NCBI RefSeq assembly: GCF_009914755.1 | Contig: NC_060930.1 | DNA: 64,000 nt | DNA from: the human T2T-CHM13v2.0 reference genome, Homo sapiens | Direction: 5' to 3' (one strand) | In this document: positions 4,788 through 62,310 of the stretch, in pieces | How positions within the stretch are numbered: the first letter of the stretch is position 1 | Layout: each line of letters begins with the position of its first letter | The notes under the pieces: generated by a model | What the model saw: the letters and a program-made list of their open reading frames with translations, nothing else | Told to the model about the DNA's origin: nothing | The model's database searches: none | Translations under genes and position numbers: made by a program

Positions 4788-5259
4788 ACCAAGTTGCTGC
4801 TATGAAAAGGGATTTGAAAATTCCCAGAGGAGCCTTTCAGCCTCTTTCCATGGCTCTTTATGCCCTTTCAAAGGCACAGCCAGAGACATCAGAAATGAAA
4901 TTGTATATAATTATATGGACTTTTCGACAATCATTGAAATTTTTGTAAGTGCCAGTTATATTTTGGCAACCCCATCAAAGCCAGGTGTGCCCAGGGCAGT
5001 CAGCTCAGGCCCTGGCCTCTCATTCAGGTTGGATTCTATAAGAACCGCATTCGCGGTGAGAATTCTAGAGCCAGATCTTGCTGCTCCACAATTGCCTCAC
5101 GTTGCAAGACAAGCAAATCTAGCCTGAGTCTGTGGATTCCAGGGCTGCTTAGGAGGAACCTGCATTCCCGCGTGGATGACCTCAGGCTCCGCCCCTTCTG
5201 CCCCACTCAGCCCTCACCCAGTGCCTGAGAGCGCTCAATCAGAATGCGAGAGCAGCGCG

Positions 5260-5279
5260 GCGGCGCCCCCGTGTGGCCA
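5260..5279 (-). promoter_or_regulatory. CTCF core motif, reverse orientation
   Basis: Minus strand reads TGGCCACACGGGGGCGCCGC, a close match to the CTCF consensus TGGCCACCAGGGGGCGCT. Binding is inferred, not shown. Confidence 0.7.
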
Positions 5280-5937
5280 CAGGGACGAGGACAGAGGACC
5301 GGACCCCGCTCCCCTTTCTCACCAACCAGGACCTCCGAGGCTCTCCCTCTGCTCCCAGCACCTGGACAGGGCTCTGCACTCAAGGAGCCTCCGGGTCTCA
5401 AGTCAGGCTCTGAGTCCATTCAGCTTCCCAAAATCCATGTTGACAATGACATTTCCTCTCACCACTGAGTGACTGGACTTTTGCCTCAGAGCAGAGAGAG
5501 GCCTCCAGGGCAAAACAGTGGGATCAGATGTGGGGATGACACACCCCCAAATCCTTGCTGCCACAGGACCCAGTCCCTCAGCCTCCAGATGGGGCCTTGG
5601 CCTCCCGTCCCCTCCTTTGTTCCTGCTGCTAGAGGCTGCTCATCCCAGGAATCAGCCTGTTAGCCTCCAACCCTGGGGTCCAGGGACAGCAGCTCCTAGT
5701 GCCTCGGTCCAGGAAGAAGGGAACCTCCAGAGAGCAGAAGAGAGAAGAAATGGATCATAAGAGAAGGGGGCAAGGGGGGAGAAAGAGAGTGAAAGGAGCC
5801 AGGGAGGAGAGAAAAATGGAAAACATCCTGTTAGGAATGTGTGTGTTTGTGTTGATGTGTGTGCGTGCAGGTGTGTGTAGAGTGGGAGAGAGTTTCTAGG
5901 GTTCTGAGGAGAAGAGAGCTGCTATACAGGTGCTAAG

Positions 5938-6040
5938 GGGCCCAGCCCTGGGAATTTCAGGGTCCCGCTTTCTGAGCTAGGATCTTAAGGCCCTATCAGA
6001 GTCCACCCCCAGGAAGCCTGCAGTCATAGCACTGGGCTAG
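5938..6040 (+). repeat. 103-bp direct repeat, copy 2
   Basis: About 90% identical to 4685-4787 by hand count. Confidence 0.95.
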
Positions 6041-6469
6041 CTGGACGGCTGCCTCTTCTTTGCCTTTGACAGCAGGAGCTGCCATGCCAGGCCCAGGGGC
6101 CCTGGGGTCATGGGCAGAGAGCAGGTCCCTCTGCTGGCAGCCAAGGAGATGTTGTTCTTGGAGGGTCAAAGACTTACTTAGCTGGGAGTCTGAAGGTGGT
6201 CATGGGTTACAAAGGGGTTACAAAGAGCTCAGCGGTGAGCCTGGCCCAAGCTTCTGACCCCTTTCTTTGGATCTCAAGGGCTGACCATGGATTCTCAATG
6301 GATCTCAAGAATTCGCCCATTTACCTCTTGCCCCAGACCCTCCCCACTTCGATACCCTGGGACCCAGGCATCTGCCTCTTTCCTTCTCCTCCGGCCTCCC
6401 AAGCACCTCCAGGCCCTGCTCTCTGCCAACCTGAACTCCAGGACCCTGCAGCCCCACCCCAAAATTGCT

Positions 6470-7292
6470 TGATAATACAGTGATTCTATTTTCAGTGTTT
6501 TGAAAACTCTGTATACTGTTTTTTACAGTTGCTGTACTAGTTTTACACACTGTGTGTAAGAGTGCCCTTTTCTCCACATCCTCACAAACATCTATTTGTT
6601 TGTTTGTTTTTTTTTGTCTTTTTAGTTGTACCCATTCTATCTGGGGGTAAGATGATATCTCATTGTGGTTTTGATTTGCATTTCCCTGATGATAAGTGAT
6701 GTTGAGCATTTTTCATGTACCTGCTGGCCATTTGTATGTCTTCTTTTGAGAAATGTCTATTCATGTCGTTTGTCCACTTTTTAATAGAATTTTTTGGTTT
6801 TTTTAGCTCTTGAGTTCCTTACATATTCTGGATATTAGTCCCTTGTCAGATAAATTGTTTGAAAATATTTTCTCCCATTCAACAGGTTGTCTGTCTACTC
6901 TTTTGATGGTTTTCTTTGCTGCGCAGAAGCGTTTTAGTTTATTATAGTCCCATTTGTCTATTTTGTTTGGGTTGTCTGTGCTTCTGAAGTCTTAGCCATA
7001 AAATCGTTACCCAGACCAATGTCCTAGAATGTTTCTCATATGTTTGCTTCCAGTTGTTTTATAGTTTTGGGTCTTACGTCTAAGTATTTAATCCATCTTG
7101 AGTTGATATTTATATAGGGTGAGATATAGGGATCTAATTCCATTCTTCTGCATGTGGATATCCAATTTCCCCAGCACCATTTATTGAAGAGGGTGTCCTT
7201 TCCCCAAATGTATGTTCTTGGCACCTTTGTCAAGAATCAGTTGGCTGTAAATATATGGATTTATTTCCAGATTCTCTATTATGCTGCATTGA
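6470..7292 (-). mobile_element. L1 (L1PB/L1MA-age) ORF2 3' fragment
   Basis: Minus-strand ORFs with ORF2p C-terminal motifs ([26 protein letters not shown]). Confidence 0.9.
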
Positions 7293-7302
7293 TTGACATG
7301 TG

Positions 7303-7424
7303 TTTGTAGAGACGAGGTCTCAGTATGTTTCCCAGGCTGGTCTAGAACCTCTGGGCTCAAGTGGTTCACCCTCCTTGGCCTCCCAAAGTGCTGGGATTAC
7401 AGGAGTGAGCCACAGTACCTGGCC
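7303..7424 (-). mobile_element. Alu monomer (FLAM_C or AluJ left arm)
   Basis: tttgtagagacgaggtctc...ctgggctcaagt...gggattacaggagtgagccacagtacctggcc. Confidence 0.85.
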
Positions 7425-7747
7425 TTTGTGCTGTGTTTTGATTCATCGTTATCTCCTAAGCCCTTTCCCAGCATTGATATTTTACTAAACACCCTATGAT
7501 TAAATTATATCTCTACACCTTGAGATAAACAAAAAATTATATAAGCGGTAAAGACAAATATGAAAAAATAAAACTACTACCAATGTTATTAGGAGGATAA
7601 CCTTAAAACATTTGAGCAAGAAAATTTTTCTTTTTTTCTTTTTTCTTTTTTTTTAGCTGTACCTGCTGGAATGGAAAATATTTCTTAAATGAGACAAATA
7701 TATGAAAGTGAAAATGCTTAAACTTCAAAGGACTTACATTACATATA

Positions 7748-8842
7748 TAGTCATTCTTTCTTAATGATAAGATAGGTTCTGAGAAATGTGTCCTTAGGTG
7801 ATTTGGTCTTACGTGAACATCATAAAGTGTCCATACACAAAGCTAGATGATATAGCCTACTGCACACCTACGCTATATCATAAAGCCTATTGCTCCTAGG
7901 CTACAAACTTGGATAGCACATTACTATACTGAGTACTGTAGGCAATTGTAACACAATGGTAGGTATTTGTGGATCTAAACATATGTAAACAGAAAAAGTA
8001 CAGTAAAAATATGGTAAAAAGATTTTTACAATGGCACACCTATATAGGTTACTCATCATGAATGGAGCTTACAGGACTGGAAGTTGCTCTGGGTGAGTCA
8101 GCAAGTGAGTGGTGAGTGAACTGAAGGCCTAGGCCATTACTGTGCACTACTGTAGATTTTATAAATGCTGTACACTTAGGTTACACTAAATTGATTTTAA
8201 AAATAATTTTCTTTCTTTAATAATAAATTAACCTTAGCTTAATGTAACTTTTTTAACTTTATAAACTTTAATTTTTAAAACTTTTCAGCTTTTGTAATAG
8301 CACTTAGCTTAAAAGACCAACATGTTACAAAGCTGTACAAAAATATTGTTCCTTATATTTTCATTCTAGAAACTTATTTCTATTTAATTTTTTTTTTACT
8401 TTTAAATCTTTTCTGTTAAAAAAAAAAGACATAAATTAGCCTAGGCTGACACAGGGTTAGGATCAACAATATCACTATCTTTAGCCTTTACATCTTGTCC
8501 CACTGGAAGATTTTCAGGTGTAATAACATGCATGGAGCTGCCATCTCCTATGATAACAATGCCTTCTTCTGGAATACCTCCTAAAGGACCTGGCCGAGGC
8601 TGTTTCAAGTTTTTTTAATAATTAGAAGGAGCACACTCTAAAATAACAATAAAAAGTATAGTAAATATGTAAACCAGTAACATAGTCATTTATTATCATT
8701 ATCAAGGATTATGTATTGTACATAACTGTATGTGCTAGACTTTTATAGGATTGACAGTGCAGTAGGTTTGTTTACACCAGCATCACCACAAACATATCAT
8801 TAATGCATTGTACTATGATGTACAGTGTCACCTACAATGTCA

Positions 8843-8845
<3 letters not shown>
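7748..8845 (+). mobile_element. Tigger3b-like TcMar DNA transposon, one end deleted
   Basis: Starts tagtcattctttcttaatgataagataggttctgagaaatg, then gcctattgctcctaggctacaaac. Stops abruptly at ctacaatgtcacta. Confidence 0.8.
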
Positions 8846-13150
<4,305 letters not shown>

Positions 13151-13260
13151 ACAATGATGGTGCACCCCGTCTCCATGGGGACAGAGGGTCGTGTGCTCAG
13201 AGTGCTTCCAGATGTCGCCTCCTGCACTTCATCTGCCTGCTCATTTGTATCCTTTACAAC

Positions 13261-13605
13261 TGCTATTGTTTGAATGTTTCCCCAGAAAAGCGTCTGTTGG
13301 AAACTTAATCCCCAGTGCAACAATGTTAAGAGATGGGACCTTTGAGAGGTGATTGGACCATCAGAGCTCTGCCTTCATTAATGAACTGATCAAGGCTGCC
13401 CTCATTAATGCTGATCATAAAGGACCTGAGCCTGTGAGTTCGACCTCTTACTCCCTCTAGCTCTCACCCTCTCTTGCGCTTCTCCCTTCTGCCAGATACA
13501 TTCCCTTGATTTTGGAATTCCCATCCTCGACAACCATGAGCCAATTAAATTTGTGTTCATTGTAAGTTATCCAGTCTCAGGTGTTCTGTTATAGTGGCAT
13601 AATTT
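13261..13605 (+). mobile_element. MST-family MaLR LTR nested in a MER21-like LTR fragment
   Basis: tgctattgtttgaatgtttcccc...gttggaaacttaatcccc...ccagtctcaggtgttctgttatag. Confidence 0.75.
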
Positions 13606-13609
13606 AAAC

Positions 13610-13962
13610 CAGGGGTCCCTAACTCCCCTGCAGTGGACCGGTACAGGTTTGTGGCCTGTTGGGAACCAGACCGCACAGCAGGAGGTGAAGGGTGGGCGAG
13701 AAAGCATGAGCATGACCGCCTGAGCTCCGCCTCTGGTCAGATCAGTGGTGGCATTAGATTCTCATGGGAGCACGAACCCTATTGTAAACTGTGCATGCGA
13801 GGGATTTAGGCTGCACGCTCCTTTATAAGACTCCAGTGCCTGATCATCTGAGGTGGAACAGTTTCATCCCGAAACCCATCCCCGCCTACCTGTGCCGCCT
13901 GCCCTGGTCAGTGGAAAAGTTTTATTCCATGAAACCAGTACTTGGTGCCAAATATGTTGAGG
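13610..13962 (+). mobile_element. MER1B hAT-Charlie MITE
   Basis: caggggtccctaactcccc...gtcagatcagtggtggcattagattctc...ccatgaaaccagtacttggtgccaaa. Confidence 0.85.
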
Positions 13963-14017
13963 TAAGCTATGATTACCGCTGATTTAAGCTATGACAATAA
14001 TAAACTGCAATACTGAG

Positions 14018-14515
14018 TGTGAAAGAAAGATAAAATCTTGGGACCCCAAACTCACAGTGCCAAAGGGAAAAGTTAAGTTTGGGAACTGAGTCATGGAAAA
14101 ACTGCCTTTCTTTTGTTCCTAAACAAATACCTGCAAAGATAGAGGACCACATATCTCCCCAAGTGGCCTCCCTCACAATCTGCTCACAATGTAATTCCTT
14201 GTGGGCCCCAACATCTTTACCCTAAAACAGAGTTTTGTTGACTTTTCCCCTGACAATGTAAAGTAACAGCTTATCTTCACAGGTACAGGACAAAGACAAG
14301 ACTAGAAATCATCCCTTCACCCACCCGGAGACAAACACATATTTTACTACTCTATGTTTACTTTAGCTTATGTAAAATTCAGATTTACTGAGCACAAGAT
14401 GAATGCATAGTTGACTGTTTTTCCCCTTCTGCCTGCTCTTTCCCCTGTAAGTACTGAAGTCCTCAAAACCCTTTTAGGAAAAAGCGTGGGCCACAGATGC
14501 TAGTGATTTTTGTCT
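14018..14515 (+). mobile_element. MER4-group ERV1 LTR, 3' truncated
   Basis: tgtgaaagaaagataaaatcttgggaccccaaactcacagtgccaaagggaaaagttaag. Confidence 0.7.
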
Positions 14516-14521
14516 CTTTTT

Positions 14522-15320
14522 CCAAGGTGCATCTTGGAATGGGAGACTGGAGGGACCCATGGATCCCAACCCTGGACCTGGTTCCCCCAGTACAATCCAT
14601 GAGCCAGTTGAATCTGAATGCGAAGATGGAACGACGACTGACCAGAGTCATGCTGACATCAACCCCCATAACATGGGGACTGATCAAGAAAACCACACAG
14701 GAAGCTGAGAAACTGCTGGAGTGCCAGGGTGTCACCTTTTGCTGGAACTCAGAAGTACAATCGATGTTTAACGGACCAGTGCTTTCTGACTCAGCTCCTC
14801 TCTACCCTGAATACAAGAGACCCTAATAGTTAGGCAGGAATACCATCGCCCTTATTCTGCATGAAGAAGTTGCAGAAGACAGACCTTCATCCTTCTGCAA
14901 CCCTTAGGATTAAGCATCCTCTTGTAAAAAGGGAAGGGGGAGATATGTAAGAAGCATTCAAACCACAGCAACTCTATTTTGAATAAGGGCTAAGAAAAAT
15001 GAAGCTGGATCACCAACCGGCAATTAAGAGCTGCACAGCCTGCAATTACCTTGCTCAATTAATTTTAAAACAAAAAGGAGTAGATGTTGGAGGCCGCACG
15101 AATGTTTCTTATGATTTGCCACAATTGAAGCCTGCCAGTAACAATATGAACCTGTGATCAATTAAGCAGCTGACCAATCATTACCTCCTCCTCCTTGCCC
15201 TTATTACCCAGTAAATATGAAGGGCTAAGAAGCTCGGGCGGCGGCCTTTGCTCACTAGAAGCAGGGAGCTCTTTTCTTCTCGTCTCTCTTCTTCTTCCCC
15301 ATGCTAGCCTTTCCTTAAAA
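14522..15320 (+). mobile_element. HERV-K(HML-6)/HERVK3 env-3'LTR remnant (LTR3 from 15085) with an embedded MER41-like segment
   Basis: Betaretroviral env leader MERRLTRVMLTSTPITWGLIKKTTQEAEKLLECQG. PPT plus MER41-like LTR start at 14926-15007. Second PPT then tgttggaggccg (LTR3 start) at 15085. Confidence 0.7.
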
Positions 15321-15324
15321 TGAT

Positions 15325-18019: not shown

Positions 18020-18177
18020 CTACTTCAACTGCATCCCATACATTTGATATGTTGTGCTTCAGTATTCTTCAGAAAACAGAAGACTTTCTAATTTCTCCTG
18101 TGATTTCCTCTTTGAATAAGTTGTTATTCAGAATTTTGATGTTTAATTTCCAATCCTTGGTATTTTCATGATCGTCC

Positions 18178-19104: not shown

Positions 19105-20553
19105 TTGCATGCAGATGTATGTTCATTGCAGCACTTGTCACAATAGAAAAGACATGGAATCAACCTAAATGCCCATCAATGGTGAACTGGATAAAGAAAA
19201 TGTGGCACATATGCACCATGGAACATTATGCAGCCATAAAAAAGAACGAGATCATGTACTTTGCAGGAACATGGATGGAGCTAGAGGCCATTATCCTTTG
19301 CTAACTAATGCAGAAAAAGAAAACCAATTGCCACATGTTCTCACTTATGAGTGGGAGCTAAATGATGAGAACATATGGACATATAGAAGGGAACAACACA
19401 CACCGGGGCCTACTTGAAGGCAACGGGTGGAAGGAGGGAGAGGATCAAGAAAAATAATGAATGGGTGCTAGGCTTAATACCTGGGTGGGTACTAATAGGT
19501 ACAGAAACTATATGACTGTGGGCAGCAAGCCACCCAGGTGCCGAGGCAAGAGACTGAAGGCACAAGCTCTTCCAGTATAATAAAGAAAATACTTAAAATA
19601 AAAATAGTTGTATTAGACATAAAATATAGATATGGTTATGTATAAATATTACTAATCATTAGTTTATGACATTACTCTTTATTCCAATATTATAATAATC
19701 TTTGTTCTACAATTATAACCTAGAAAAAACCAGGCCATACAGAGATAGGAGCTGAAGGGACACGGTGAGAAGTGAACAGAAGACAAGAGTGTGAGCCCTC
19801 TGTCATGCCTGGACAGGGCCACTAGAGGGCTCCTTGGTCTGGCGGTAACGCCAGTGCCTGAGAAGGCACCCATCACTCAGCAGATCGGGAAAGGGAGTCT
19901 CCCTTTGCCCGGGGGAGTTAGAGAAGCCTCTGCTCCACCACCTCTTGTGGAAGGCCCGACATCAGTCAAGCCCGCCCACAGCCATCTGGAGGACTAAACG
20001 TCTCCCTGTGATGCTGTGCTTCAGTGGTCACGCTCCTGTTTGACTCTCATGTTCCACCCTCTACACCTGGCTCAGCCTTCTAAATAGCAGTAGCAAAAAT
20101 TAGTGAAAGTACTAAAGTCTTTGAAATACATAGAAGAAATAATGACATAAACTGTCCCCTCTCTCTCTCCGCCTCGGCTACCGAACAGGGAAGGGCCCCC
20201 TGTCTGGTGGACACGTGACTCACGTGACCTTACCTATCATTGGAGATGGCTCACACTCCTTACCCTGCCCCCTTGTCTTGTATCCAATAAATAACAGCGC
20301 AGCCTGGCATTCGAGGCCACTATCAGTCTCCGTGCCTTGGTGGTAGTGGTCCCCTGGGCCCAACTCTCTTTTCTTCTCTTTGTCTTGTGTCTTTATTTCT
20401 ACACTCTCTCATCTCCACACACAAAGAGAAAAACCCACAGGTCCTGTAGGGCTGGAGCCTACATATGACAAACTCTCATGATACAAATTTACCTATACAA
20501 AAACCTGCACATGTACCCTGAACTAAAAATAAAAGTTAAATTAAAAAAAATAA
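19105..20553 (+). mobile_element. Older L1PA 3' end, split by LTR13
   Basis: ORF2p C-terminus MFIAALVTIEKTWNQPKCPSMVNWIKKMW. The 3'UTR resumes at 20470 and ends in an A-rich tail. Confidence 0.85.
19517..20463 (+). mobile_element. LTR13-type (HERV-K13/HML-4) solo LTR
   Basis: tgtgggcagcaagccacccaggtgccgaggcaagagac...gggctggagcctaca. Perfect 6-bp TSD tatgac (19511-19516 / 20464-20469). aataaa at ~20286. Confidence 0.88.
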
Positions 20554-22922: not shown

Positions 22923-23177
22923 GTCCCACAGTCTTCATTACAACCTCACGGTGCTGTCCCAGGATGGATTTGTATAGTCAGGGTTTCTCGCTGAGGGACA
23001 TCTGGATGGTCAGCCGTTCCTGCTCTATGACAGACAGAAAGGCAGGGCAGGGGCCCTGTGGACAGTTGGCAGAAGCAGTCCTGGGAGCTGAGACCTGGGA
23101 CACAGAGACCGAGGACTTGACAGAGAATGGGCAGGACCTCAGGAGGACCCTGACTCATATCAAGGGCCAGAAAGGAG
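22923..23177 (+). pseudogene. MICC: MIC exon 2 (alpha1 domain)
   Basis: cccag|gtcccacagtctt acceptor. Reads [37 protein letters not shown] with TAG at 22975-22977. Extra G in the run at ~23050, then [27 protein letters not shown]. Donor gag|gtgaga. Confidence 0.92.
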
Positions 23178-23443
23178 GTGAGAGTCGGCAGGGGCAAGAG
23201 TAATGGCAGAGGCCTTCTCCAGGAGAGTTGGAGGCAGAGAGCAGGGACCTGTCTCTTCCCACTGGATCTGGCTGAGGGTGGGCTGAGAAATAGGGGTCAG
23301 TGGGGCTCAGCAGGGAGGTGAGCCGGCACTCAGCCCACACAGGGAGACATGGAGGAGGGCCAGGGAGGGGTCCCAGCTGGGCTGAGTTCCTCACTTGGGT
23401 GGGAAGATGAGGGGTTCAGGAATGAACTGCTGGGTGGGGGCAG

Positions 23444-23729
23444 GCTTGCATTCCCTCCAGGAGATTAGGGTCTGTGAGATCCATGAAGACAGCAGCACCA
23501 GAGGCTCCCGGCATTTCTACTATGATGGGGAGCTCTTCCTCTCCCAAAACCTGGAGACTCAGGAATGGACAGTGCCCCAGTCCTCCAGAGCTCAGACCTT
23601 AGCTATGAATATCAGAAATTTCTGGGATGAAGATGCCACACAGGCCAAGACACTTTCACCCTGTGATGGCAGACCGTCTGCAGAAACTACAGTAACATCT
23701 CGAATCCTAGGAGGGCATCAGGAGAACAG
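23444..23729 (+). pseudogene. MICC: MIC exon 3 (alpha2 domain)
   Basis: [56 protein letters not shown] ~2-nt deletion near 23653 is followed by TAA/TAG in the ancestral frame and loss of the second Cys. Donor acag|gtac. Confidence 0.93.
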
Positions 23730-24330
23730 GTACCGACCCTGGGCAGGGGCTTTCCTCTCCCCCATTTCACTAGAGTCACTCCCCTGCCAGCTCTGTCCTG
23801 GGAAACCCTCTCTGTGCTATGGATGCAGGCGTTTCCTGTTGGCGTATTGTGTCCTGACTTTCCTCTCTTGTTAGAGCCACTGGATAAAGACAGTGGGTTG
23901 GGGACTGAACCATCCAGTGTTGTAATCTGGGAAAGCAATGGCCCACTCCCAACAGAATCCTCACCCTGGGGTGGGTGTTAGGCAGGAGAGGAAGCCCTCA
24001 GGGCTAGGGCTGCCCCCTCTGCCTCCCAGCCTGCCCATCCCAGAGAGTTCCCTCCTGGCCTCATGACCCAGGAGTCCAATCCTGACATCCCTCCCCTTCA
24101 GCATCAATGTGGGGATCTCAGAGCCTGAGGCCATAGTCTGAGGCCCATCCTCCTGCCAGCCCAAAGGAATTGGGCCCCAGGGTAAGGACAGACTTGCAAA
24201 AGATCCGGGGTCCATGAGGGCTTCAGCCAGAGTGAGAACACTGGAGAGGAGCAGCCCTGTTCCCTGAGTCTCCCTTAGAGGGAGCGGGGCTTGGCCATGT
24301 GCCTCACTGGCTCTGCCCTTTCCTATCCAG

Positions 24331-24601
24331 TGCCTACCATGGTGAATGCCAGGCCTCAGAGAACAAAGTCACCCCCACATGCTGGGCTTCCGGCTTCTAT
24401 CCCCAGAATATCTCTCTGGCCTGGTGTCAGGTTGGGGCATTTTCTGAGCCAGGATGCCCATCGGTCTGTGGGTGTCCTGCCCAATGGGAATGGGACCTAC
24501 CAGACCTGGGTGGCCACTAAGATTCCCCAAGAAGAGGAGCAGAGGGCTACCTGCTATGTGGGACACAGCAGGAATCACAGCACTTACCCTGGTGTCCTCT
24601 G
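24331..24601 (+). pseudogene. MICC: MIC exon 4 (alpha3 Ig-C1 domain)
   Basis: [22 protein letters not shown] and [39 protein letters not shown], spread over shifting frames. ccag|tg acceptor and ctg|gtgag donor. Confidence 0.92.
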
Positions 24602-24717
24602 GTGAGCCTGGGGCGACCCTCAAGTGTTCTGACCTAGAAAGGGTCAGGCCAAGGTGGGCACAGCAGAGATAACTGGAACTCTGAGTGCCCAGTGTGCAAC
24701 AAGGCCCTTTTTTTCAG

Positions 24718-24848
24718 GGAAAGCCCTGATGCTTCAGAGTCTATGGCAACCGTTCCGTATGTTGCGGCTGCTGCTGTTTTTGTTATCATTATTATTATTC
24801 TCTGTGTCCTTTGGTGCAAGAAGAAAATATCAGCTGCAGAGGACCCAG
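24718..24848 (+). pseudogene. MICC: MIC exon 5 (transmembrane)
   Basis: GKALMLQSLWQPF, a frameshift, then YVAAAAVFVIIIIILCVLWCKKKISAAEDP. ttttcag|gg acceptor and ccag|gtgaa donor. Confidence 0.92.
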
Positions 24849-48221: not shown

Positions 48222-48223
<2 letters not shown>

Positions 48224-51060: not shown

Positions 51061-51984
51061 ATTATTATTTTGTCTATAAATTTTTTATGTGTCTTTGAGG
51101 TTGATTATGAGAAACTGTCTGTATATATCTATGTTTGTGGTTACCAAAGAGAAGTTTTTTAATTTATAAGTACTTAAAACTACCCTCATACTTCTTTATG
51201 GTGTTTATTTTTAGGTCATGCTTAGAGAATCCTTCTTCACTGCCCAATTGTAGACACTTCATGTATTGTTCCAGCTAGGTTGTGACAATGAGGAAAGAGG
51301 AGTCCAAGGGTGAAGAAAACAAAATTGTTGGAATACAAGGGGAGGAGGGGCAGCAGGTAAAGAATTCTAAGGTTTAAGTCTCTTGTTTTATAATTTAAAA
51401 AATATGTCTACAGAGCCTTCAGCATACTTGACATATGTCATATCCAATAGTTTGTCTTGAGAAAAATGGATACTTATCTTCTCCTTGTATTCACCTGGTT
51501 AAAGCAAACAATAACAACAGAATTCCAGTGCAATATAGACAATGATTAGCCCTGGCAATGGGCATTTTTGAACACTTAAAATGTTGAGGTGATAAATCAT
51601 GTTTCGGTTAATGTCTGTACCCTCCACTTATACATATACATATTAATTAGACTTTCGTGGGCTTGCTGTGTTTTAAGGACGTGTCTAAGGCCCATGTGGA
51701 CAAATCCGTGACTTCTCGATGAAGATAATTTAATATATATTCAATCTGAGAGTCCCACCATATATTTTGGGGGAGATTGAAAACTATGAGCACTCTAGAT
51801 ATGCACTGTTAAATATGGTAACTACTGGGCATACATAGTGTAGGGTTTGTTTTTGTTTGTTTGTTTTCATTATTAGTACAAATCCATTCAATGGGCAAGA
51901 TAGACCAATCTATTTTAACATAACAGAATACAAATAGTCAATGATAGGGTTTCAGGTTGTATCTAACCTTTAAGAAATTATCAC

Positions 51985-52220
51985 TTGCTAGGACTTCCAG
52001 TACTATGTTGAAAGAAGTGGTGAAAGTGGGCGTCCTCGTCTTGTTCCAGTTCTCAGGGGGAATGCTTTCATCTTTTCTCTGTGCAGTATAAGGTTGGCTG
52101 TGGGTGTGTCATAAAGGGCTTTTATTACTTTAAGGTATGTCCCTTCTATGCTGATTTTGCTGAGGCTTTTAATCATAAAGGGATGCTGGATTTTATCGAA
52201 TACTTTTTCTGCATTTTATT
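51985..52220 (-). mobile_element. L1PB-like ORF2 fragment
   Basis: gctaggacttccagtactatgttgaa...cttgttccagttctcagggggaatgctttc. Confidence 0.8.
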
Positions 52221-52234
52221 GAAACGATTATTTC

Positions 52235-52285
52235 AGAGAGAGAGAGAGAGAGGGAGGGAGGGAGGGAGAGAGAGAGAGAGAGAGA
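52235..52285. repeat. Polypurine (GA)n-(GGGA)4-(GA)n mirror repeat
   Basis: Seen directly in the sequence. Confidence 0.92.
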
Positions 52286-53006
52286 TGGGGTGAAGGAACA
52301 GGCTGGGAACCTGGGAGGAGACCCGGCCGCAGGCGCGCAGCCTGGAGGCGATGGTGAGCCCTGCCACGCGTGAGTCACGGACCACCCCCGCCGCGCTCTG
52401 CTCCCCGCCTGGCTCTCTTCTTCCCAGCCCCTCCCTTCCTCCTCCTGCTCCACTGATCCCTACTCAGGCTTCTTTCGCTGAAGAATTCCAGAAGGGACAG
52501 AACTAAGGATGAAGTGTGGCATTTGAACAGGGTTTACGGCTAGATCCTAGGAGGTCATTCTAAGGGTTTACATTGCATCACCGTCTGTGGTTACAAAGAG
52601 CTTTCCGGGAGAACTTTCCATTTGTAGGTTTGGTCAGGGAGACCCTGTGATCACCCCAGTGCCCAGAGAAGGAAACTGAAGCCCAGGGTTCTGCAGAGGC
52701 TTGCCCAGGCTACACAGATCTTCAGCTAGATTCGAATAGTTAAAAATCCAGGTGATCAAAGGCGGAGCAGCGTCTTCCAAGAGCCCGGAGAGAGAGGACA
52801 CCCCACTCCTGGACGTTATATTCTGCAGCCCGCTGCTGGGAAATCCCAAGGGGTATGCGACCAGGTTGGAGTATCCTGGGCCCAGGGCCCACGAAAATGG
52901 CTTTCACTGTTGGAGGGGATCTTGAATCCAGAATCTGTTCCCAAAAAAGAGAAAGAAAAGCAGATTTGGGTGACCTCAAAAGTTTCAAACTACCTTCCCA
53001 CGTATC

Positions 53007-53008
<2 letters not shown>

Positions 53009-53055
<47 letters not shown>
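53009..53055. repeat. Pure A47 homopolymer
   Basis: Direct count. Confidence 0.95.
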
Positions 53056-53059
<4 letters not shown>

Positions 53060-53200
53060 CATTTTTAATATATAAAGACACTGAAAATTCAACAGTTTAA
53101 AAAAATCAATAAAATAGGAAAGTGGACAAAACACATGACAAATATTTCTTTTAAAATGATATGTAGATGGGAAGTGAGGACACAAAAATGTGGTCCATAT

Positions 53201-53289
53201 GCGGAGCTTGCAGTGAGCCGAGATCGCGCCACTGCACTCCAGCCGGGGCCACAGAGCGAGACTCCATCTCAAAAAAAAAAAGAAAAAAA
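53201..53289 (+). mobile_element. Severely 5'-truncated AluY inside an old L1M 3' region
   Basis: Y-diagnostic gcggagcttgcagtgagccgagatcgcgcc. Perfect 17-bp TSD aaaaatgtggtccatat (53184-53200 / 53290-53306). Confidence 0.92.
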
Positions 53290-54802
53290 AAAAATGTGGT
53301 CCATATGATTCATCATTGGGGAAATGTAATTAAAACCATTATGAGATATTACTACACCCCTATCAGAATGAATAAAATAAGAAATAGAAATAACACCACA
53401 TGCTGGATGTGGAGAAAATGGCTGAATCACTCATTGCTGGTGGGAATGTAAAATGGTACAGCCACTCTAGAAACTAGAGTATGGCGAAAAAAAAAAAAAA
53501 CTAAACATGCCATTGCACTCTAGGGCATTTATCCCAGAGAAATGAACACTTAAGTTCACACCGAAATCAGCATACAGCATATAAAGGTTCGTAGCAGAGC
53601 AGAGACCTGAGCAGGAAAAAAAAAAAAAAAAAAAAAACCCACTGTCACAGCCAGACAGAATCAGTTCTGGAAACTCCCAAAAGAACTAGAAGCCACCAAG
53701 ACCGGCAGCCCACCTTGGGCAGTGACAGTTTCTGCTCAAGGGAGACACAACCTGAAGAAGGAAAACAAGACCAAAATTGAGAAGCAATCTTTTAATCACA
53801 GTGTTTGCAAACACATAGCCAGGAAAGAATGTTAGCACAGAGGTCAGAAAGGCAGTCACTCATGGAGCTAGGAAAGGGAAGAGGTGTGATGGGAGGGGGC
53901 AAGCAAGGCATTTGTGGGACACTGGACAACTGTGCTTCTTGACCTAGGTGGTGCTTGTGTGGTCATAGTCGCTAGTTAAATATTGTGTACATTTGTAAGT
54001 AACTTTTCTGCATATATTTTATATCTCACAAAAAAAGAAAAGAGATCAGACTCCTCCCAGAAAAACAATGAAAGAAGGAGGTGTCACACCAAGATCAGTC
54101 AAACCTCCTTCCTACATTTGTAAATCCATCCAAGCACTAGCTCTGTGACCCTCAGATTCCTCATCTCTATTGAGACTCAGCATCTGCAAGAGTTTAAGAA
54201 CAAGACCATGGGTAGATCATACTGTCATAAAATAGAATCTGTTTCTTGTGATACAACATGAGGGACCCCACCTCACCCCCCAAAATAGGTACTGAACAAA
54301 GGTTCCTATTCCCAGAAACCCCCTCTTCCATCTTTGGATTCATCCCTGAGATTGCAGAATGCTTCTGGCTGAAGGCAAAGCCCCATCTTTATGATTCCCC
54401 TCCTCCTTCGTCCACCTCTCCAAGATGTAGGCTTCTCCCTCATGCCTCAGACTCCAGGGCCTGTTCCAGGGTCAGGATCATAGTTCCCTTCTTCAGAGAG
54501 GAACTCTTAATGAAGCTGACCCAATTTGCTCTGGAGAGCACTGGAGGCACCTGCTAAGCCTCTCCCTTCAGTGGAGAGAAATTCCAGTGGAATCCCAGAG
54601 ACCCTTGGCAAACCCACTGCAGACCACCCTGCTGAACCCATCTCCACACTCACCACTGCAAGGAAACTTCAAACTGAGTTCTACTAAAAAGCAATTTCGG
54701 CTCTTACACTTCCTCTTTAGTGTTCTTCTAGCTTACTAGGCAAGTAACCACAGTGTGCCTCCATTAATTAATAAATCCCCAAAACACTGGTCTTATGAAC
54801 AG

Positions 54803-55033
54803 TGTATTGATCAGGGCTCTCCACAGAAGCAGAATGAATAGGCGACATATATCTCCAGTTGATCTGATGAGGCCCACTCACATTATGGAGGGCAATGTAC
54901 ATTAGTCAATTCCACTGATTTAAATGTAAATCATTTTTCGAACACACTCATGGGAATACCTAGAATAATGTTTGGCCAAATATCTGGGCTCCTTCGTGAC
55001 CCAGTCATGTTGAGAAATCAAATTAATCCTCAC
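54803..55033 (-). mobile_element. MLT2/MLT1E-type LTR with an internal deletion
   Basis: tgtattgatcagggctctcc...gatgaggcccactcacattatggagggc...aattaatcctcaca. Confidence 0.7.
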
Positions 55034-55884
55034 AAGGAACAAATCAGATAATATTCACTTGGATATTAGACTAGAGCCTTGGACATACCAAGTGCTCTGT
55101 AAATGTTAGCCTTACAAATGTAAGGTGGTGTTTTAGATTTACAGAACACAGTATATCCTAAGGTATCACAGGCTTGTTGATGAACTCTGTTGGGAAAAAT
55201 AATACATGGGAAATTTAGTTGTGGAAATTGAATTTTGTTATTTTATTTTTGTCTTTGCTTTTCTGTGTGAGTGAAGGAGTATAAGGCAAATTTCTGAGCA
55301 CACGGGGCATGCACTAAAGGGGTTTCATTTGGCATTTGGAGCCAGTTTTGTCACACTATAGGAAAACTAAACCGTTATTTAAGAACTTCCCTGCCAGCTC
55401 TCACGTTGGGGACTGGCTGGTCCATCTAGCCTGGTTGGTTGATTCCAAAAATATGTGTAGGGAGGTAGAGTGACTAAACGTGAAGAATGGGGAACTCTGG
55501 AAGTGCAGAATTGAAGCCCAGAAGGGAACAGAAGCCTCCCTCTACTTCACAGAAGATGACTAGGACATGCTCATCCCTGGGATAGAAAATCCATTGGACT
55601 TGGAGACTCAGTGAGTTGTATTCCCGATCTCACCACTGGAGGGAGGTGGGAGAGGCATATGAGTGAGTGTGGAGGGGCTCAGAAGCCCAGCCAGCTAGTG
55701 TGCAGGTTGCCCTGCAGATTCTCACCAGGGCTGCTCTGAAGCCCAGAGGGCACCCCAGAGGAGGAAGGGAATGACAAAGCCTGCCTGGGGTCACAGGAAA
55801 AGAGGAGAGAGGCAGACTGAAGGAAGCCCAAGACTACAAAGTGAAAGAAAATGCCTTTTAGTCACTCAAGACATTGTCAGACAC

Positions 55885-56010
55885 AGACTGGGAGCAGTGG
55901 CTCACACCTATAATATTAGCACTATGGTAGGCTGAGGTGAGGCCGGGAGTTCAAGACCAGCCTGGACAACAATGCAAGACCCTATCTCTACAAGAAATAA
56001 ATTAATAAAA
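55885..56010 (+). mobile_element. FLAM Alu monomer
   Basis: gcagtggctcacacctataat...ggagttcaagaccagcctgg...A-rich tail. Confidence 0.75.
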
Positions 56011-59000
56011 GACTTCTTCGGACATGACTAGAACCCAAGAGGTGGGTACCTGGTAGAGTTATATGGGAAGAATGGAGCAATGGGTTTGGCAGTTGGGGTG
56101 GGGAAACAGGGAGGAAGGGAATGAAAAAAACTCTTGAGGGTAGATGATGGTGCCAGTCTGAGAATCAAGCACCAGTTCCATTCTACTGTGCATCTAGTCA
56201 CGTTGGCATAGACTTCCAGGCAGGAGGAGGAGCAAGCGGTGGGATCAGCTACATGTGGGCTTCCAAAGGTAATCCCAGGTGCCACCTCTCCTCCATACTT
56301 ACTAGGAATCCCAGGCCCTTCCCTGAAGTGACACCATCCTGCATTCTTTGTACCTCTCTTTCCACTTCTTCTCACAGCTTTTCCCTCCCTCCTCCATTCT
56401 CCTGGCCAGGACCCACACTCACCCCACCTAACCTCTCTCTTTTGATCAGTCCCATAGTTCAGAAAGGAACAGAAATGCCAGCTGAATAAAAATTTATTTC
56501 GTGCTCTCTGGGCATGTATTTGAGAACAATAACATTGTTTCCGGTCTCAATGCACTTTCACCACATCTGATTTTCAGCTATGTGGGGAAGGCCATCTATC
56601 TGATCAACCCATCACCCAGTGAAGGAAACTGAGGCCCAGAGCCCTGAGGATGCTTGCCCAAATCACCCTGCCCTTCAGCTAAATCACCCAGAACAGGATC
56701 TTGCAAGGGCCCTAAGAGTCAGAGAAGACAGCAGCCCCTCGTGTTGGATTCTCCTGCCTGCCCAGGAAACTGGGTGGGAACCATTCAGATTCTTCCTGCA
56801 TGAAAAGGGTGACCTGTGTCCTTGGGGATCCTCCAGTGGCCCTAGTTGCTCCTGCTGGGGATGACCTCAACTCCTGAATCCAACCCTGTAAAATAAGAAG
56901 AAATTCAGACATTGCAAGGCATGAAAAATTTTCTCCCAATAGCAAAGGTGAAGGATGTACTCGGAGAGGAGGGAACATACCAAGAAGAGAAGGAAGGAAT
57001 ATATATTGAAAAGAATACAAAACAAAAATAAACAGACCAAGACGTGGGATGTATAGAATCAGGCATCAACCCATGAAAAGGTGAAAAGGTGAAAAGGCAA
57101 CAGGACCAGAAAGGAAGAGGGTCGCCTGGGTGGGTGGACAGCACAGCAGAGGGGACGCCATCTCCAAGAAGATGACCTTGACAAGAGCCACCATAAGTTT
57201 AAAGGTATGGAGAAGACATTTACTCAACTAAGGGACAGTTGGTGAATTCATTTGTTAAGGTTCATGGAAAGTAAGAAAATGAAAACGCCGGGCAATTATC
57301 AATTCTCTGAAAACATCAACATGTATGGAAAGAAAAACTAAGAGAGTTTACCATGTGGCTCAGGTCTGAGTAGCATTCACGTAAGTCAGTAATTTTAACT
57401 CTGGCTCTCAATGCACTCAAAATCTCCACCTGCCTACATGAGGAGGATGAAAATGTGTGTGCTGTGGAAGGTACTATGGACTGAAGGGATTTTGAAAAGT
57501 CAATACTTAATATCTAAAATGGAAATGTTTGAAGTGGCATAAATGTATATTATCAAGAGACATAAAGATAAAGAACAACATATGAAGTAAAAGGCTTCTA
57601 TGTGGTTGTTTGCCAGGAAGCTGGTGGCTAGGAAGGATTGAGAGGGAGTAGAGGGGAGACCATGTTTTGTAACAGGGGAAATGAAAGGGAAGCAGGTAGC
57701 ACCTGGAGCCTGCCTCATGTAGAGAACAGGGTTCCACGCAGTGGTCCAGGATCTCAGGGACTTACTGTGGCTGAGGCCACCTGCCCCCAGGACAAGCCCT
57801 TGGCACTGAGTCTACTGAAATGTGGGCAGGGAGAAGAGGAGGCCTTCGGACCTTTTACCTGAGCAGCCTGGTTTACTCTAGGCTCTGTCTTGTTTCCTGT
57901 CCAGAGATTAATGCAACAAACTGTCTCCAAATTCATCCAAGGGAGTGGAGTTCCTTCCCCTACTCCCGATCCCCCTCAACACCATCCTTTCTGGAAGTGT
58001 TATTCTGAACATGTTCTCGGATTTGTTTTTATCAGTGGAGAAAGAGAGGATAGAAGAGCACTCACCCAGCAGAGCCAGAGGGAGGCAGCTCCAAGGACTC
58101 CAGTGGCCACCAGAGCCCACCAGGACCCAGGGCTGGAGGTGCACAGTGAGATCCTCAGCGCAGAGGGAGAAATCTCCTAAGGGTAGGAAGGAATAACAGA
58201 ATTGGGGAGCATTTCCTTACTTCACAGCAAGTGCAAACATGATGGGAAGGCATAGAGAAAAAGGAAGAAATTATAGGGAAATGTGCTTATTTAGGGGGAG
58301 GCAATACTGCGGGAGGGGTACAACAGACCCAGCACTGGTGGGGGCTAGGAGAAACAGGTATAATCCTTGACTAGAGAATGGATACTTGAGGTCAGAATAG
58401 TTACTAAATGAAGAGGATTACATACATTTTAAGGACGTTGATTTACGTTATACTTTGTCATTGGAATTTAAGGGAAAAGAAAGGAAATTAATAAATAAAA
58501 ACAGGCTGCATGTGGTAAAATCAATAGTCAGCCCTGGGACTTGTGTTTGCAAAATGCTTTATCCAGGTGCGACACCGCTGACGTCCTGGATTCCCCACCC
58601 TCTAGCACCCAGTTCCCTCTCCTGTAATGAGACCGGGGTCAGGAGGAGAGATGGACAGATGAGCCCATGCTGAAGGCAGTCAGTCATCTGTGCCTGCAGA
58701 TGAGAAACTGCAGTTTGCACCACTAGCCTCCAGCACAGAGATTCCATCCCAGCTCAGTATTTAGTATTTAGAGATGTAGTATTTAGTATTTAGAGATTCC
58801 TAAACACTGAGGGGCTCTGCCCAGTCTCCTTCCTCACACTGTGGGGCCTTGGCTTTCCCTCCCAACTCCACACCCCCAAATGCTGGTACAATGCTCAGGT
58901 TCATCCTGGACACCGCTCCATCCGACAGGGGAACACTTTTGATCCAGACGCTTTGACAACCTCGTTCAGTCTCCTCTGGAGAGAGCCGCCAAACCCTTTG

Positions 59001-59279
59001 CTGATGAGCTGAGACTGACCGGGGAACTGTGATCTCGGATGTGGTTGAGGATCAAAATCAAAATTATAGTCGACTCTTAAAGACCAAGTAGGCTCTAACC
59101 ACGGAATTCCTCTCTACCCACTGATTCCCCCAAAAGAGGAAGAAGCCTCTTCTCTAAGTACACTAAGCTGAAAAACTAAGCTGAAGTACTAAGTACATTC
59201 AGCTTTCACTAAGCTGAAACAGCAAAGCGCTGAAACAGCAAACCGCAGGCATAACAGAAAAACCTCAACTTAAATAGTG

Positions 59280-60150
59280 CTGAGCTGCAACTTGTTTTCC
59301 GCGGCTTGTAGTCGAGGAGGAGCCCACGAGGCTTTAGCTGCTGCAAGATCCAAGCGCGCTCCCGCCCAGCGGTGGCCCCGGGCTCAGGGAACCAGCGCTG
59401 CTTCTCTCCGAGGCTCGCGGCCTGAGAAACCTTCCGCTCCGAATGCGGGCTGGCCTCTCCGGGAAGCCTTGAAACTCAACTCCTGGGTGGGCCAGGAAGG
59501 TTGTCCGAGTTGGGCAGCGCCGGCCGGGGCCCCCCTCAGAGCCGAGCTGCTCGCCTCCCTCGAGACCCAGCGCAGCCTGGAGGAGAGACCGGGTCCTCTC
59601 AGGTGGGGCACTTGGTGACTAGAGACCCCATGAGCCCCCACCCTCCAGCCTGGGGCGGGATAGCCCAATCGGATGCTGGGGGGTCCGTTTGGAAACCACT
59701 CTCTGCTTTGAGGACACGCGCGGAGCTTCCCTGGGAGCAGGAGGCTCTGAAGGAAGAGGGGCAGACGCGAAGCCTCTGGCCAGCCGCGCCTCCGGTCCAG
59801 GCCTCCCTGTGTCCACATCAGGTCTCCCGGCTTTTCACAACAGTGACCTTGACAGCGCCCAGAGTCCGCGGCTTCCATCCAGTCCCCTCTTCCCCTGCGA
59901 GGCCGAGAGGGTGCAGAGCTGGTGGCTTCAGGAGGTGGCTGTGAGCGCGGGTCTGGGGCCAAGAGCAGAGGACAGGAGAAGACTGCCAAGCCACCACCGG
60001 TCCTGCGACATATTCACCAGCTGCCGGCGGCGAGGTCAGACCCCAGATTCGGGTTTGCCCAGCAGGCGCTCGGCTTCCATGCTCGCTCTCCACCTCCCTG
60101 CCTCTCTTAAGGAGGACCTGGCCCATTAGGAAGCCCGGGGCGTTCTGTGG
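59280..60150. promoter_or_regulatory. CpG-island-like region with no recognisable gene
   Basis: High GC, many intact CpG/CGCG/CCGG sites, and a GC box ggggcggg (~59652) next to ccaat (~59665). Confidence 0.7.
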
Positions 60151-61049
60151 ACTGGGTGGTCAAAAATGGTGTGTGGAGGAGGGAGTCAATTGAGATTAGA
60201 CGTGAAAAACGGGGAACCTGGGGACCGCAGGTTGGGGCCCAGGAGAGGACCGAAGCTTCCATCCAAGACTAAGTGAGGAACACTGCGGCAAGAGGAAGGA
60301 AGATTGAGTCGCAGTTGACTTGTGGATTTTATCGGTTTTAGTCCCTGTGTGACCGCCAGAAGTCTGCAGCTTTATCCTTGATGAGTTCTGAAGGCCCCTG
60401 AGGAGAGCTGAGCCCAAGAGACTTTTTAATTCCACGGAGGTACTTCGCCTGAGGCAGGTCTCTTCTGTGCCCAGGGAAGGAAGGCTGGGAGTGAGGGTAT
60501 CTGAAAATATTCACATGAGAAAAGGTCAAGTCCATTTTTGCTATCCTGTACTGAACACAGATCAATTAACTGGTCCCAGGATTGATAGCAACAGGCCTAT
60601 AACTGGTCTCCTGGTTCCTATCCAGCCCTTCCCCCATAAAGTCAGAATCCTGTCTTCTTGGAACAGTGAATCCCCAGCAGAGGACCTCAGCCTGGGCTGC
60701 CTGGAACCTGCTACCCTGCCCAGGAGCTGTCAACACCTGGAGCGCAGTGCAGGAAGAATGCAGGGGCGCTTGGTGGGGAGGTGAGTGAGTGCAGAGGGTC
60801 TCCGGGAACTCCTTGGGCCTTTGGGGTAGCTCCCTCTCAGACTGTCCTGCAGGTCCTTACAAGGCCCACTACTGAGCAGGAAGAATGTCCCCAGGAGAGG
60901 CAAAGGGTGGGGCAAAGGCGGGTATGGGGTCGCTTGCACTTTGCAGCAAACTGGAGAGTGAGATGACAGGCAAGGAGTACTGGCCCTCACATGGAAACCT
61001 ATATCACACTGCCCAAAGGGAATAGGAAAGGAACCACAGCGAGGTCCAC

Positions 61050-62310
61050 AGGGGAGGGCTGGGGGAAGCCTTACCCAGGGCGGCGAGTGCAGCCTCAGTG
61101 GCAGAAATCCCAGCGGGCCCCCTCCTGCTGCAGACCCCGCTCCTCCTGCGAGGCCCCAGACGAAGCCCGACCCCCAGCTGCCTGCGCAGCCTCCAGGCAG
61201 GGGTCGCGGGGTGCTTCGACGAGAGAGTCTGGACCAAAGCGCCAAAATCCGCCGCTGTCGCTCAGCCGCAGCCTGTTTGGGGCTGGGGAGCCTCTCCTGG
61301 TCGGTGATCGTCGCGGACAATAGACGAGACCAGAAATTAGATTTGGTTCCGGGATCAAGAACCTTTAATCAGGGAATGGAGATGGCAGGGGACGAGGCCT
61401 AAGAGATGTAGACAGCAGGTCCTGTCTGCTTAGGTCGCAAAGGGGAAGAAGGGGCGGGACTCGGGGTCCTGGACTGGGGCTGGGAAGGGTCCGCTCCAGG
61501 AGGGTGTGGGTTCCGATGCCTGGGTCCTGGAGGTCCGGGGAGTCGCGGAGGGACCTCCCTCCGGTAACCGACGGATTGGGGACAAATGCTCTGCCCAGTC
61601 TGATCCCAGACATCCTTGTAACCCAATATAGTTACAGCTCCGACGCCATGTTCTTCCTGGGTCCAGCTCCAACGCCATGTCCTTCCTGGGTCCCTCCAAA
61701 GTAGGGTTGGAGGATCAACTAGTGGATTCCGGCGAGGAGGTATCTTCCTCCCTGGAAGCAGCAGAACAAATTTCAGGGACTCGGGAGTCCAAGGCCTCAT
61801 TCCAAAAACACTGAGAGATTGGGTACTGGGCGCACAGTATGTCTGTGGGGTCACGCAGACCTGGGAACCAGATCTTAGGGCCTGCAGACCTCCCTCTGCC
61901 TTGAGATCAGACTCCACCGCCAGTAACTGGGAGGAAACATCTGTACTCCAGGATTTAGAGACACCGACACGGGAGCAGGGCGCCCCCGTGTGCACAGAGC
62001 CCTGTTCTGCAGCTGGAAACCGAACGGGACCCTGTGGAAGTCGCGGGTGGGGAAGCGAAAGGGGAGCTGAGCGTCTGTCCTCAGTCCTTGGGCCACACGG
62101 GGGCGCTGCCGCTCTGCGCTCGGATTCTGATGAGCCGCTCTGGAGAGGATGGGGCGGTGGTCTGAGTAAGACACAGATTGTTGATCCAGAAAGGATGTAT
62201 CAATGAGGTGGGGCTGGGGTTGTCCAGGGAGTGGAAAGGCCTTCTGAGAAGCCCTGGACTGCGCGGGGTTCCGGCTCTGCGGAACAGAGGAGGGCTCTGG
62301 AGCGGCCTGT
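61050..62310. promoter_or_regulatory. Second CpG-rich region, containing two CTCF-like motifs
   Basis: Dense CpG. Motifs at 61977-61995 (-, GTGCACACGGGGGCGCCCT) and 62091-62109 (+, GGCCACACGGGGGCGCTGC). Confidence 0.7.
62091..62109 (+). promoter_or_regulatory. CTCF core motif, forward orientation
   Basis: GGCCACACGGGGGCGCTGC, the paralog of the 5260-5279 motif. Confidence 0.72.

What the first reader, a model, noticed from the sequence alone, without database searches (positions are those of the whole stretch)
5225..62150. Paralogous CTCF sites point outward at both ends of the window: candidate insulated domain
Seen: agagcgctcaatcagaatgcgagagcagcgcggcggcgcccccgtgtggccacagggacgaggacaga (from 5228) matches the reverse complement of ~62074-62143. 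The CTCF core is the best-conserved stretch of an otherwise decayed paralogy and keeps its CpGs. Established: loops form mainly between convergent CTCF sites. Inference: the inversion produced a divergent pair (reverse at 5.27 kb, forward at 62.1 kb). That pair could anchor loops outward and isolate the TE-rich MIC relic from neighbouring genes.
Basis: partly seen in the sequence, partly recalled or inferred. Interest (0 to 1): 0.72.

Follow-up and report, generated by a model that had tools for sequence, protein, structure and literature searches.

The report
Duplicated CTCF module across MHC blocks
The two outward-pointing CTCF-type motifs are real, but they are two of seven old copies of one short DNA module scattered through the human HLA class I region; each likely anchors chromatin loops outward on its own, and the stretch between them is probably a by-product, not a purpose-built insulated domain.

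Summary
Observation confirmed. Window 5228-5687 is an inverted paralogue of 61690-62141 (65% identity). It carries the window's two best CTCF-matrix hits, reverse at 5261-5279 and forward at 62090-62108. Their core (17 of 19 identical) stands out from the flanks (62%).

The interpretation needs correcting. The module has seven copies in the HLA class I region. The left copy groups with copies near HLA-F and between MICA and MICB; the right copy groups with one 7 kb upstream of HLA-E. A sister relationship between the two is rejected, so no local inverted duplication made this pair. The left site came with a beta-block-like segment that includes MICC.

One published 25-kb Hi-C set puts the common boundary about 15 kb outside the left site and the whole window inside the next domain. 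CTCF or cohesin occupancy could not be checked. The upstream insulator-type motif is absent, and every copy misses one strong consensus base.

Most likely these are independent, probably bound CTCF sites spread by block duplication. A bolder reading, not excluded: the copies mark the edges of the HLA duplication blocks; common MICA deletions and duplications offer a natural test.

The parts
5130..5715 (+). Left copy (K1) of the roughly 0.6-kb module, subfamily A
   Evidence: Profile match 5130-5715 (this copy helped build the profile); BLAST core 5228-5687
5261..5279 (-). CTCF-consensus motif, reverse (points left, out of the window); best hit in the window
   Evidence: 20.8 bits, p 6e-8
6122..6140 (-). 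Second reverse CTCF-like motif 0.86 kb from K1, outside the module
   Evidence: 16.5 bits; inside a 37-base run identical in the MICA-MICB paralogue, where the 534 aligned columns average 83%
2716..14161 (+). Beta-block-like segment that carries K1, collinear with chr6:31,295,154-31,315,747
   Evidence: Nine collinear same-strand blocks, 75-92% identity
22823..24848 (+). MICC pseudogene, same strand as MICB and closest to it
   Evidence: 85% to the MICB region, 83% MICA, 81% MICD over 2 kb (gene names assigned from position, recalled); continues the collinear chain
19816..19834 (+). Forward CTCF-like motif inside the interval, carried by an interspersed repeat of about 940 bases
   Evidence: 16.7 bits; 720 candidate copies genome-wide, best ones 81-89% identical
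61662..62246 (-). Right copy (K2) of the module, subfamily B
   Evidence: Profile match (this copy helped build the profile); 85% over 1.3 kb to chr6:30,345,646-30,346,939
62090..62108 (+). CTCF-consensus motif, forward (points right, out of the window); second-best hit
   Evidence: 18.5 bits, p 3e-7
61978..61996 (-). Weaker reverse CTCF-like motif 93 bases left of the K2 core; points into the window
   Evidence: 12.7 bits; the aligned position in copy A1 scores 13.9

Best explanation
The two motifs are copies of one ancient module of about 0.6 kb that occurs seven times in the HLA class I region; each likely binds CTCF and would act on its own as a one-way stop for cohesin loop extrusion, the left one anchoring loops leftward and the right one rightward. 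Their back-to-back arrangement likely arose when a beta-block-like segment (module copy through MICC) came to lie next to the HLA-E block, whose copies face the other way. The 57 kb between them is probably a passive gap, not an element kept to isolate MICC. Shown: seven copies, their orientation, tree, collinearity and core conservation. Inferred: binding, loop anchoring and the order of events.
For: Seven copies in CHM13 chr6: 29,560.8, 29,562.0, 29,577.4, 30,261.3, 30,318.1, 30,346.4 and 31,297.9 kb. Six keep a CTCF hit of 13.8-20.8 bits at the core; the seventh has a decayed core. The core exceeds the flanks across the deep A/B split. The tree groups K1 with the HLA-F-side and MICA-MICB copies, and K2 with the copy upstream of HLA-E, both with 100% bootstrap. 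Window 2.7-14.2 kb and MICC are collinear with the MICA-MICB interval on the same strand. Loops are mostly convergent: 72% in PMC7410831 (passage). K1 lies about 15 kb from a common Hi-C boundary, less than one 25-kb bin.
Against: No occupancy data were seen for any copy. All seven copies lack the consensus A at matrix position 9, which has information content 1.54. The upstream motif is absent: best 3-5 of 10 matches, chance level. Within subfamily A the core is barely better kept than the flanks (p 0.03, 0.29, 0.16), and K2 versus K3 shows no excess (p 0.66). K3 has a substitution at a strong position. The MICA-MICB copy lies in the interval removed by viable MICA deletions (PMC10684724), so at least that copy looks dispensable.
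Confidence: 0.5

Rival explanations
1. One reading: the divergent pair forms a two-sided boundary that is kept to insulate the repeat-rich MICC interval from the TRIM39/RPP21 side and the HLA-E side.
For: Divergent orientation and the two top scores. A second reverse motif beside K1 and a second forward copy 28 kb beyond K2 reinforce the polarity. No annotated protein-coding gene lies between them (annotation supplied with the finding). K1 is within one bin of a common boundary.
Against: The common boundaries are hg19 chr6:30.25-30.325 and 30.275-30.35 Mb; the window (about 30.360-30.424 Mb) lies inside domain 30.35-31.025 Mb, and K2 is about 72 kb inside it. The two copies arrived by separate events. 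Internal forward motifs at 19816 and 55630 and the reverse motif at 61978 break the clean polarity. The insulator-associated upstream motif is absent.
Confidence: 0.2
2. The conserved stretch is kept for another factor, or as a promoter- or enhancer-like unmethylated element, and the CTCF match is secondary.
For: The best-conserved 40 columns start 25 columns outside the core and include an adjacent conserved 8-9-base word. Changes among six copies do not clearly spare the high-information positions: 3 changes over 8 such positions against 7 over 11 low ones. The position-9 mismatch is shared by all copies. K2 sits in a CpG-rich stretch, 61.1-62.3 kb.
Against: Copy A2 has changed several bases yet still scores 18.0 bits with a different variant of the CTCF consensus, as expected if CTCF recognition is what is kept.
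Confidence: 0.15
3. Neutral relic: a once-functional site copied by duplication, now mostly unbound or methylated, with the conservation peak a mixture of old constraint and of how the match was found.
For: The match was noticed because of this stretch, so there is ascertainment. No excess conservation in the younger pairs; A1 has lost the core. CpG support is marginal in single pairs.
Against: K1 and the MICA-MICB copy are identical at 19 of 19 core positions, including its CpGs, at 0.20 substitutions per site; CpG density stays high around four cores.
Confidence: 0.15

Closest known systems
Constitutive CTCF loop anchors and the convergent rule (PMC7410831, passages)
   Same: Strong core motif; orientation predicts the direction of looping.
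   Different: Binding and loop partners are not shown here; one strong consensus base is missing in all copies.
CTCF insulators with the upstream ZF9-11 motif, such as the IL3 insulator (PMC12885311, passages)
   Same: Core motif preceded by the TGG-like triplet.
   Different: The upstream 10-base motif is not present at spacers 2-7.
MHC class II CTCF insulators such as XL9 (PMC2292219 search listing; PMC3384298 passage)
   Same: Intergenic CTCF sites between duplicated MHC genes.
   Different: XL9 has shown binding and loops to promoters; this module is in class I and has no functional data that I found.
MHC class I alpha, kappa and beta duplication blocks (PMC9772353, PMC7848197, passages)
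   Same: The module copies lie at or in these three blocks and travelled with their segmental duplications.
   Different: The word CTCF does not occur in the main text of either paper; no copy was found among the inner alpha-block HLA duplicons at the sensitivity of my searches.
Repeat-borne expansion of CTCF sites (recalled: Schmidt et al. 2012; not read)
   Same: One motif multiplied by copying of its carrier sequence.
   Different: The carrier here is segmental duplication inside one locus; only the separate motif at 19816 is in an interspersed repeat.

Membership tests
CTCF binding site | Match to the core motif (zinc fingers 3-7) | tested here: met
   20.8 and 18.5 bits, p 6e-8 and 3e-7, top two in the window (matrix recalled). 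One strong position is mismatched.
CTCF binding site | CTCF or cohesin occupancy in cells | tested here: inconclusive
   RAD21 peak table of PMC7410831 is cut before chr6; no chr6 hit in the supplements of PMC7493976, where the only rows returned came from a cancer-specific sheet; the supplement of PMC3384298 has no site coordinates.
CTCF binding site | Motif better conserved than its flanks | tested here: met
   Between paralogous subfamilies: 17 of 19 against 62%. Not met in the younger pairs. Cross-species conservation could not be run.
CTCF enhancer-blocking insulator with upstream motif | 10-base upstream motif 2-7 bases from the core | tested here: not met
   Best 3-5 of 10 in all seven copies; random DNA gives 4-6.
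TAD boundary formed by divergent CTCF sites | Divergent orientation | tested here: met
   Reverse at 5261, forward at 62090.
TAD boundary formed by divergent CTCF sites | Hi-C insulation minimum at or between the sites | tested here: not met
   In one data set (PMC7058537, five cell lines, 25-kb bins) the boundary ends about 15 kb left of K1 and the window is inside domain 30.35-31.025 Mb hg19. The resolution leaves K1 ambiguous.
Insulated neighbourhood (CTCF-CTCF loop enclosing a gene) | Convergent anchors on both sides of the enclosed gene | tested here: not met
   The two sites face away from MICC. Definition recalled.
Loop anchor | Called loop with an end at the site | tested here: inconclusive
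   The loop table of PMC6401380 has irregular anchor coordinates; my number searches returned no chr6 row near these places and I could not read that part. The loop table of PMC7410831 was too large to read.
Clustered 2xCTS (CTCF/BORIS) site | Two motifs 30-40 bases apart | tested here: not met
   The two motifs at K2 are 93 bases apart (the 30-40 figure is from one figure legend).
Repeat-borne CTCF site | Motif lies in a genome-wide interspersed repeat | tested here: not met
   DNA search with K1 gave 5 of 5 matches in the MHC. Six off-MHC pattern hits show no extended homology; the best matches 28 bases only. The search skips common words, so a very old repeat is not excluded.

The most novel reading that the evidence does not exclude
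One pre-primate CTCF module was carried along by the duplications that built the HLA class I alpha, kappa and beta blocks, and its copies now help fix the domain edges of the region: forward copies at the start of the alpha-block domain, the reverse-then-forward set beside the 30.3-Mb boundary, and a reverse copy at the end of the HLA-C/B/MICA domain. Common MICA deletions and duplications would then remove or double one domain-edge site in people.
Probability: 0.25. Interest if true: 0.6.

Novelty: new member of a known kind. Interest (0 to 1): 0.33.

Why it matters
Two CTCF motifs in an intergenic stretch are ordinary. What lifts this slightly is the family: if the copies are bound, the folding of the HLA class I region was partly inherited through its block duplications. 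One copy falls inside the interval that MICA copy-number variants delete (0.4%) or duplicate (1%) in people (PMC10684724), which gives a ready test of how losing one anchor changes HLA-B, MICA and MICB contacts.

Tried and rejected
Local inverted duplication as the origin of the pair: rejected by the tree and AU test and by collinearity.

Two giant paralogue-to-paralogue domains (alpha-edge copies to K1, about 0.7 Mb; K2 to the MICA-MICB copy, about 1 Mb): the geometry is convergent, but each span crosses a common boundary (30.05-30.125 and 31.025-31.1 Mb hg19), so I rejected them as simple domains; long loops are not excluded.

Upstream insulator motif and 2xCTS: not met. Interspersed-repeat origin of the module: no support.

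A first pattern search returned nothing because my gap range was too short; it carries no information.

Occupancy and loop look-ups led nowhere. One search fetched an unrelated paper and was not used. PMC8927851, PMC7733486 and PMC4957750 (passages) say nothing on these sites; the CTCF site in the last is downstream of HLA-F, a different place. PMC6562477 (passages) describes CTCF sites at HCP5, not this module.

Of ten literature searches, three returned no paper and one returned only an irrelevant meeting report; the listings of the other six showed no paper on this module. Subscription papers, most supplements and the ENCODE tracks were not searchable, so it may well be catalogued as ordinary CTCF peaks.
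Full report
OBSERVATION. The quoted stretch is at window 5228-5295 and its inverted paralogue at about 62074-62143. Self-BLAST of the window finds the match 5228-5687 against 62141-61690 at 64.7% identity, E 7e-32. Scanning both strands with the CTCF matrix MA0139.1 (counts recalled from memory; column sums 908-913 as a consistency check) makes the two cores the best hits in 64 kb: reverse at 5261-5279 (20.8 bits) and forward at 62090-62108 (18.5 bits). Two hits that strong arose in 1 of 60 windows simulated from local composition.

CONSERVATION. Between the two copies the core is identical at 17 of 19 positions against 62% of 562 ungapped columns (binomial p 0.0075); the best 40-column window overlaps the core but starts 25 columns outside it (permutation p 0.005, optimistic). 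Across 13 pairs tested, the core excess had p below 0.05 in 6 (K1-K2, B-K2, A3-K2, K1-K3, K1-A2, K1-B) and not in 7, including K2-K3 and all pairs with A1; the pairs are not independent. Shared CpG columns are 4 of 12 near the core against 1 of 21 in the flanks for K1-K2 (p 0.047), with p 0.08 and 0.16 for two other pairs. All seven copies lack the consensus A at position 9, and none has the upstream motif that PMC12885311 links to enhancer blocking (passages; test).

WHAT IT IS. The pair is not unique. Genome searches and alignment give seven copies on CHM13 chr6, all in the HLA class I region: A1 29,560.8 kb (core decayed), A2 29,562.0 (forward, 18.0 bits), A3 29,577.4 (forward, 16.6), K1 30,261.3 (reverse, 20.8), K2 30,318.1 (forward, 18.5), K3 30,346.4 (forward, 13.8) and B 31,297.9 (reverse, 20.8). 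Searches with HLA-E and MICC place A1-A3 18-35 kb upstream of the first class I gene of the alpha block (HLA-F), K3 7 kb upstream of HLA-E, and B between MICA and MICB (names other than HLA-E and MICC assigned from recalled gene order). The search scores only the best candidates, so seven is a lower bound. Six pattern hits outside the MHC show no extended homology to a profile of the module.

HOW THE PAIR AROSE. Maximum-likelihood trees group K1 with A3 and B (distances 0.15-0.20) and K2 with K3 (0.13), each with 100% bootstrap; K1-K2 is 0.74. Forcing K1 next to K2 and K3 is rejected (AU p 3.5e-7) (A2 was left out of the long alignment because its homology is short). Window 2.7-14.2 kb is collinear, on the same strand, with 31,295-31,316 kb, and MICC continues the chain onto MICB (I fetched 50 kb of the 72 kb from 31,288 to 31,360 kb, leaving out 31,318-31,340 kb). 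MICC is closest to MICB. So K1 and MICC form a beta-block-like unit in beta orientation, set beside an HLA-E block whose copies face the way the alpha-edge copies do. The divergent geometry is the junction of two blocks of opposite polarity (inference). The distance of 0.74 suggests that the A/B split is far older than the primate duplications (inference; not dated with other species).

THREE-DIMENSIONAL EVIDENCE. I converted coordinates with the SVA between MICC and HLA-E (hg38 30,474,489 in PMC7848197; CHM13 30,338,665; offset 135,824) and a recalled hg38-to-hg19 shift of 32,223. K1, K2 and K3 fall at about hg19 30,364.9, 30,421.7 and 30,450.0 kb. Positions for the A and B copies rest on recalled gene coordinates and may be off by several kb. 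Supplementary file 3 of PMC7058537 (rows seen; five cell lines, 25-kb bins) lists common boundaries at chr6 29.55-29.625, 30.25-30.325, 30.275-30.35, 31.025-31.1 and 31.4-31.475 Mb; a further one at 30.05-30.125 follows from the gap in the domain table. The window lies inside domain 30.35-31.025. K1 is 15 kb from the boundary, K2 72 kb, K3 100 kb, A2 33 kb, A3 48 kb, and B falls inside one. This counts against an insulation minimum between K1 and K2, though K1 is within one bin. It mildly favours the family reading: each of the three clusters has a copy within 33 kb of a boundary and facing into the adjacent domain. But 36% of the 2-Mb region is that close to a boundary, so three of three has a chance near 0.05, noticed after the fact.

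OCCUPANCY. Not obtained. The RAD21 peak table of PMC7410831 is cut before chr6 and its loop table is too large. The supplements of PMC7493976 gave no chr6 hit. The loop table of PMC6401380 could not be located at chr6 with the look-ups left. PMC3384298 reports CTCF ChIP-chip across the MHC, with 29% of sites in class I, but gives no coordinates in the part I read or in its supplement. These unseen tables bear directly on the main claim.

MECHANISM. By the loop-extrusion rule (72% of loops convergent in PMC7410831) a bound reverse site at K1 would hold loops to its left and a bound forward site at K2 loops to its right; they would not loop with each other. The interval between would be outside both loops as a by-product. 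It is not clean: forward motifs at 19816 (16.7 bits, in an interspersed repeat) and 55630 (15.7), a reverse motif at 61978 (12.7), and CpG-rich stretches at 59.2-60.3 and 61.1-62.3 kb lie inside it.

NATURAL TEST AND CAVEAT. MICA deletions and duplications recombine between hg38 31.389-31.392 and 31.486-31.489 Mb (PMC10684724, abstract and passages). Copy B lies between MICA and MICB, about 30 kb past the MICA match and 61 kb before the MICB match, so by position it is removed or doubled (inference). PMC6562477 states that the HCP5 region between the two genes is deleted in chimpanzee and gorilla (passage). That argues that copy B is dispensable, and it offers the cleanest test of the family idea.

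NOVELTY AND VERDICT. None of ten full-text searches listed a paper on this module or on paralogous CTCF sites in the class I blocks; the library lacks most subscription papers and all browser tracks. The sites are best filed as new members of a known kind: CTCF motifs multiplied by duplication. Observation confirmed, interpretation partly supported, interest 0.33.

Noticed in passing
window 4685-4787 and 5938-6040: Direct repeat of 103 bases, 90% identical, flanking the K1 module 1253 bases apart. Copies A1 and A2 are 1188 bases apart, which may reflect an old tandem unit of about 1.2 kb.
   Followed up: no
window 22923-24848: MICC is on the same strand as HLA-E and HLA-N (supplied annotation), whereas a figure legend in PMC9772353 says all MIC genes run opposite to all class I genes. 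It fits a beta-oriented segment set into the kappa block.
   Followed up: partly
window 11150-13150: Matches at 82-83% to chr6:31,118 kb and 31,200 kb (3' of the HLA-C and HLA-B positions) and in pieces to 31,313-31,314 kb; part of it is an interspersed repeat.
   Followed up: partly
window 58500-64000: Tandem-duplicated just downstream: 58.5-61.0 kb matches chr6:30,327.1-30,329.8 kb and 61.0-64.0 kb matches 30,345.4-30,348.2 kb (79-90%). The second copy is split by 15.6 kb holding TMPOP1, SUCLA2P1, L1 pieces and an SVA.
   Followed up: partly
window 19510-20450: Interspersed repeat of about 940 bases, LTR-like by size and copy number (family not identified), carrying the forward CTCF-like motif at 19816; 2 of 5 other copies scanned reach the same 16.7 bits.
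   Followed up: partly
window 4063-4259: The RefSeq silencer lies 1 kb from K1, inside the segment shared with the A3 and B paralogues.
   Followed up: no
L050:1453-1471 (chr6:29,571,453): Strong reverse CTCF-like motif (20.3 bits) between copies A2 and A3; convergent with A2 over 9.5 kb.
   Followed up: no
window 669-1344: Two Alu-like elements in inverted orientation about 90 bases apart (self-inverted match 670-1330, 78%).
   Followed up: no
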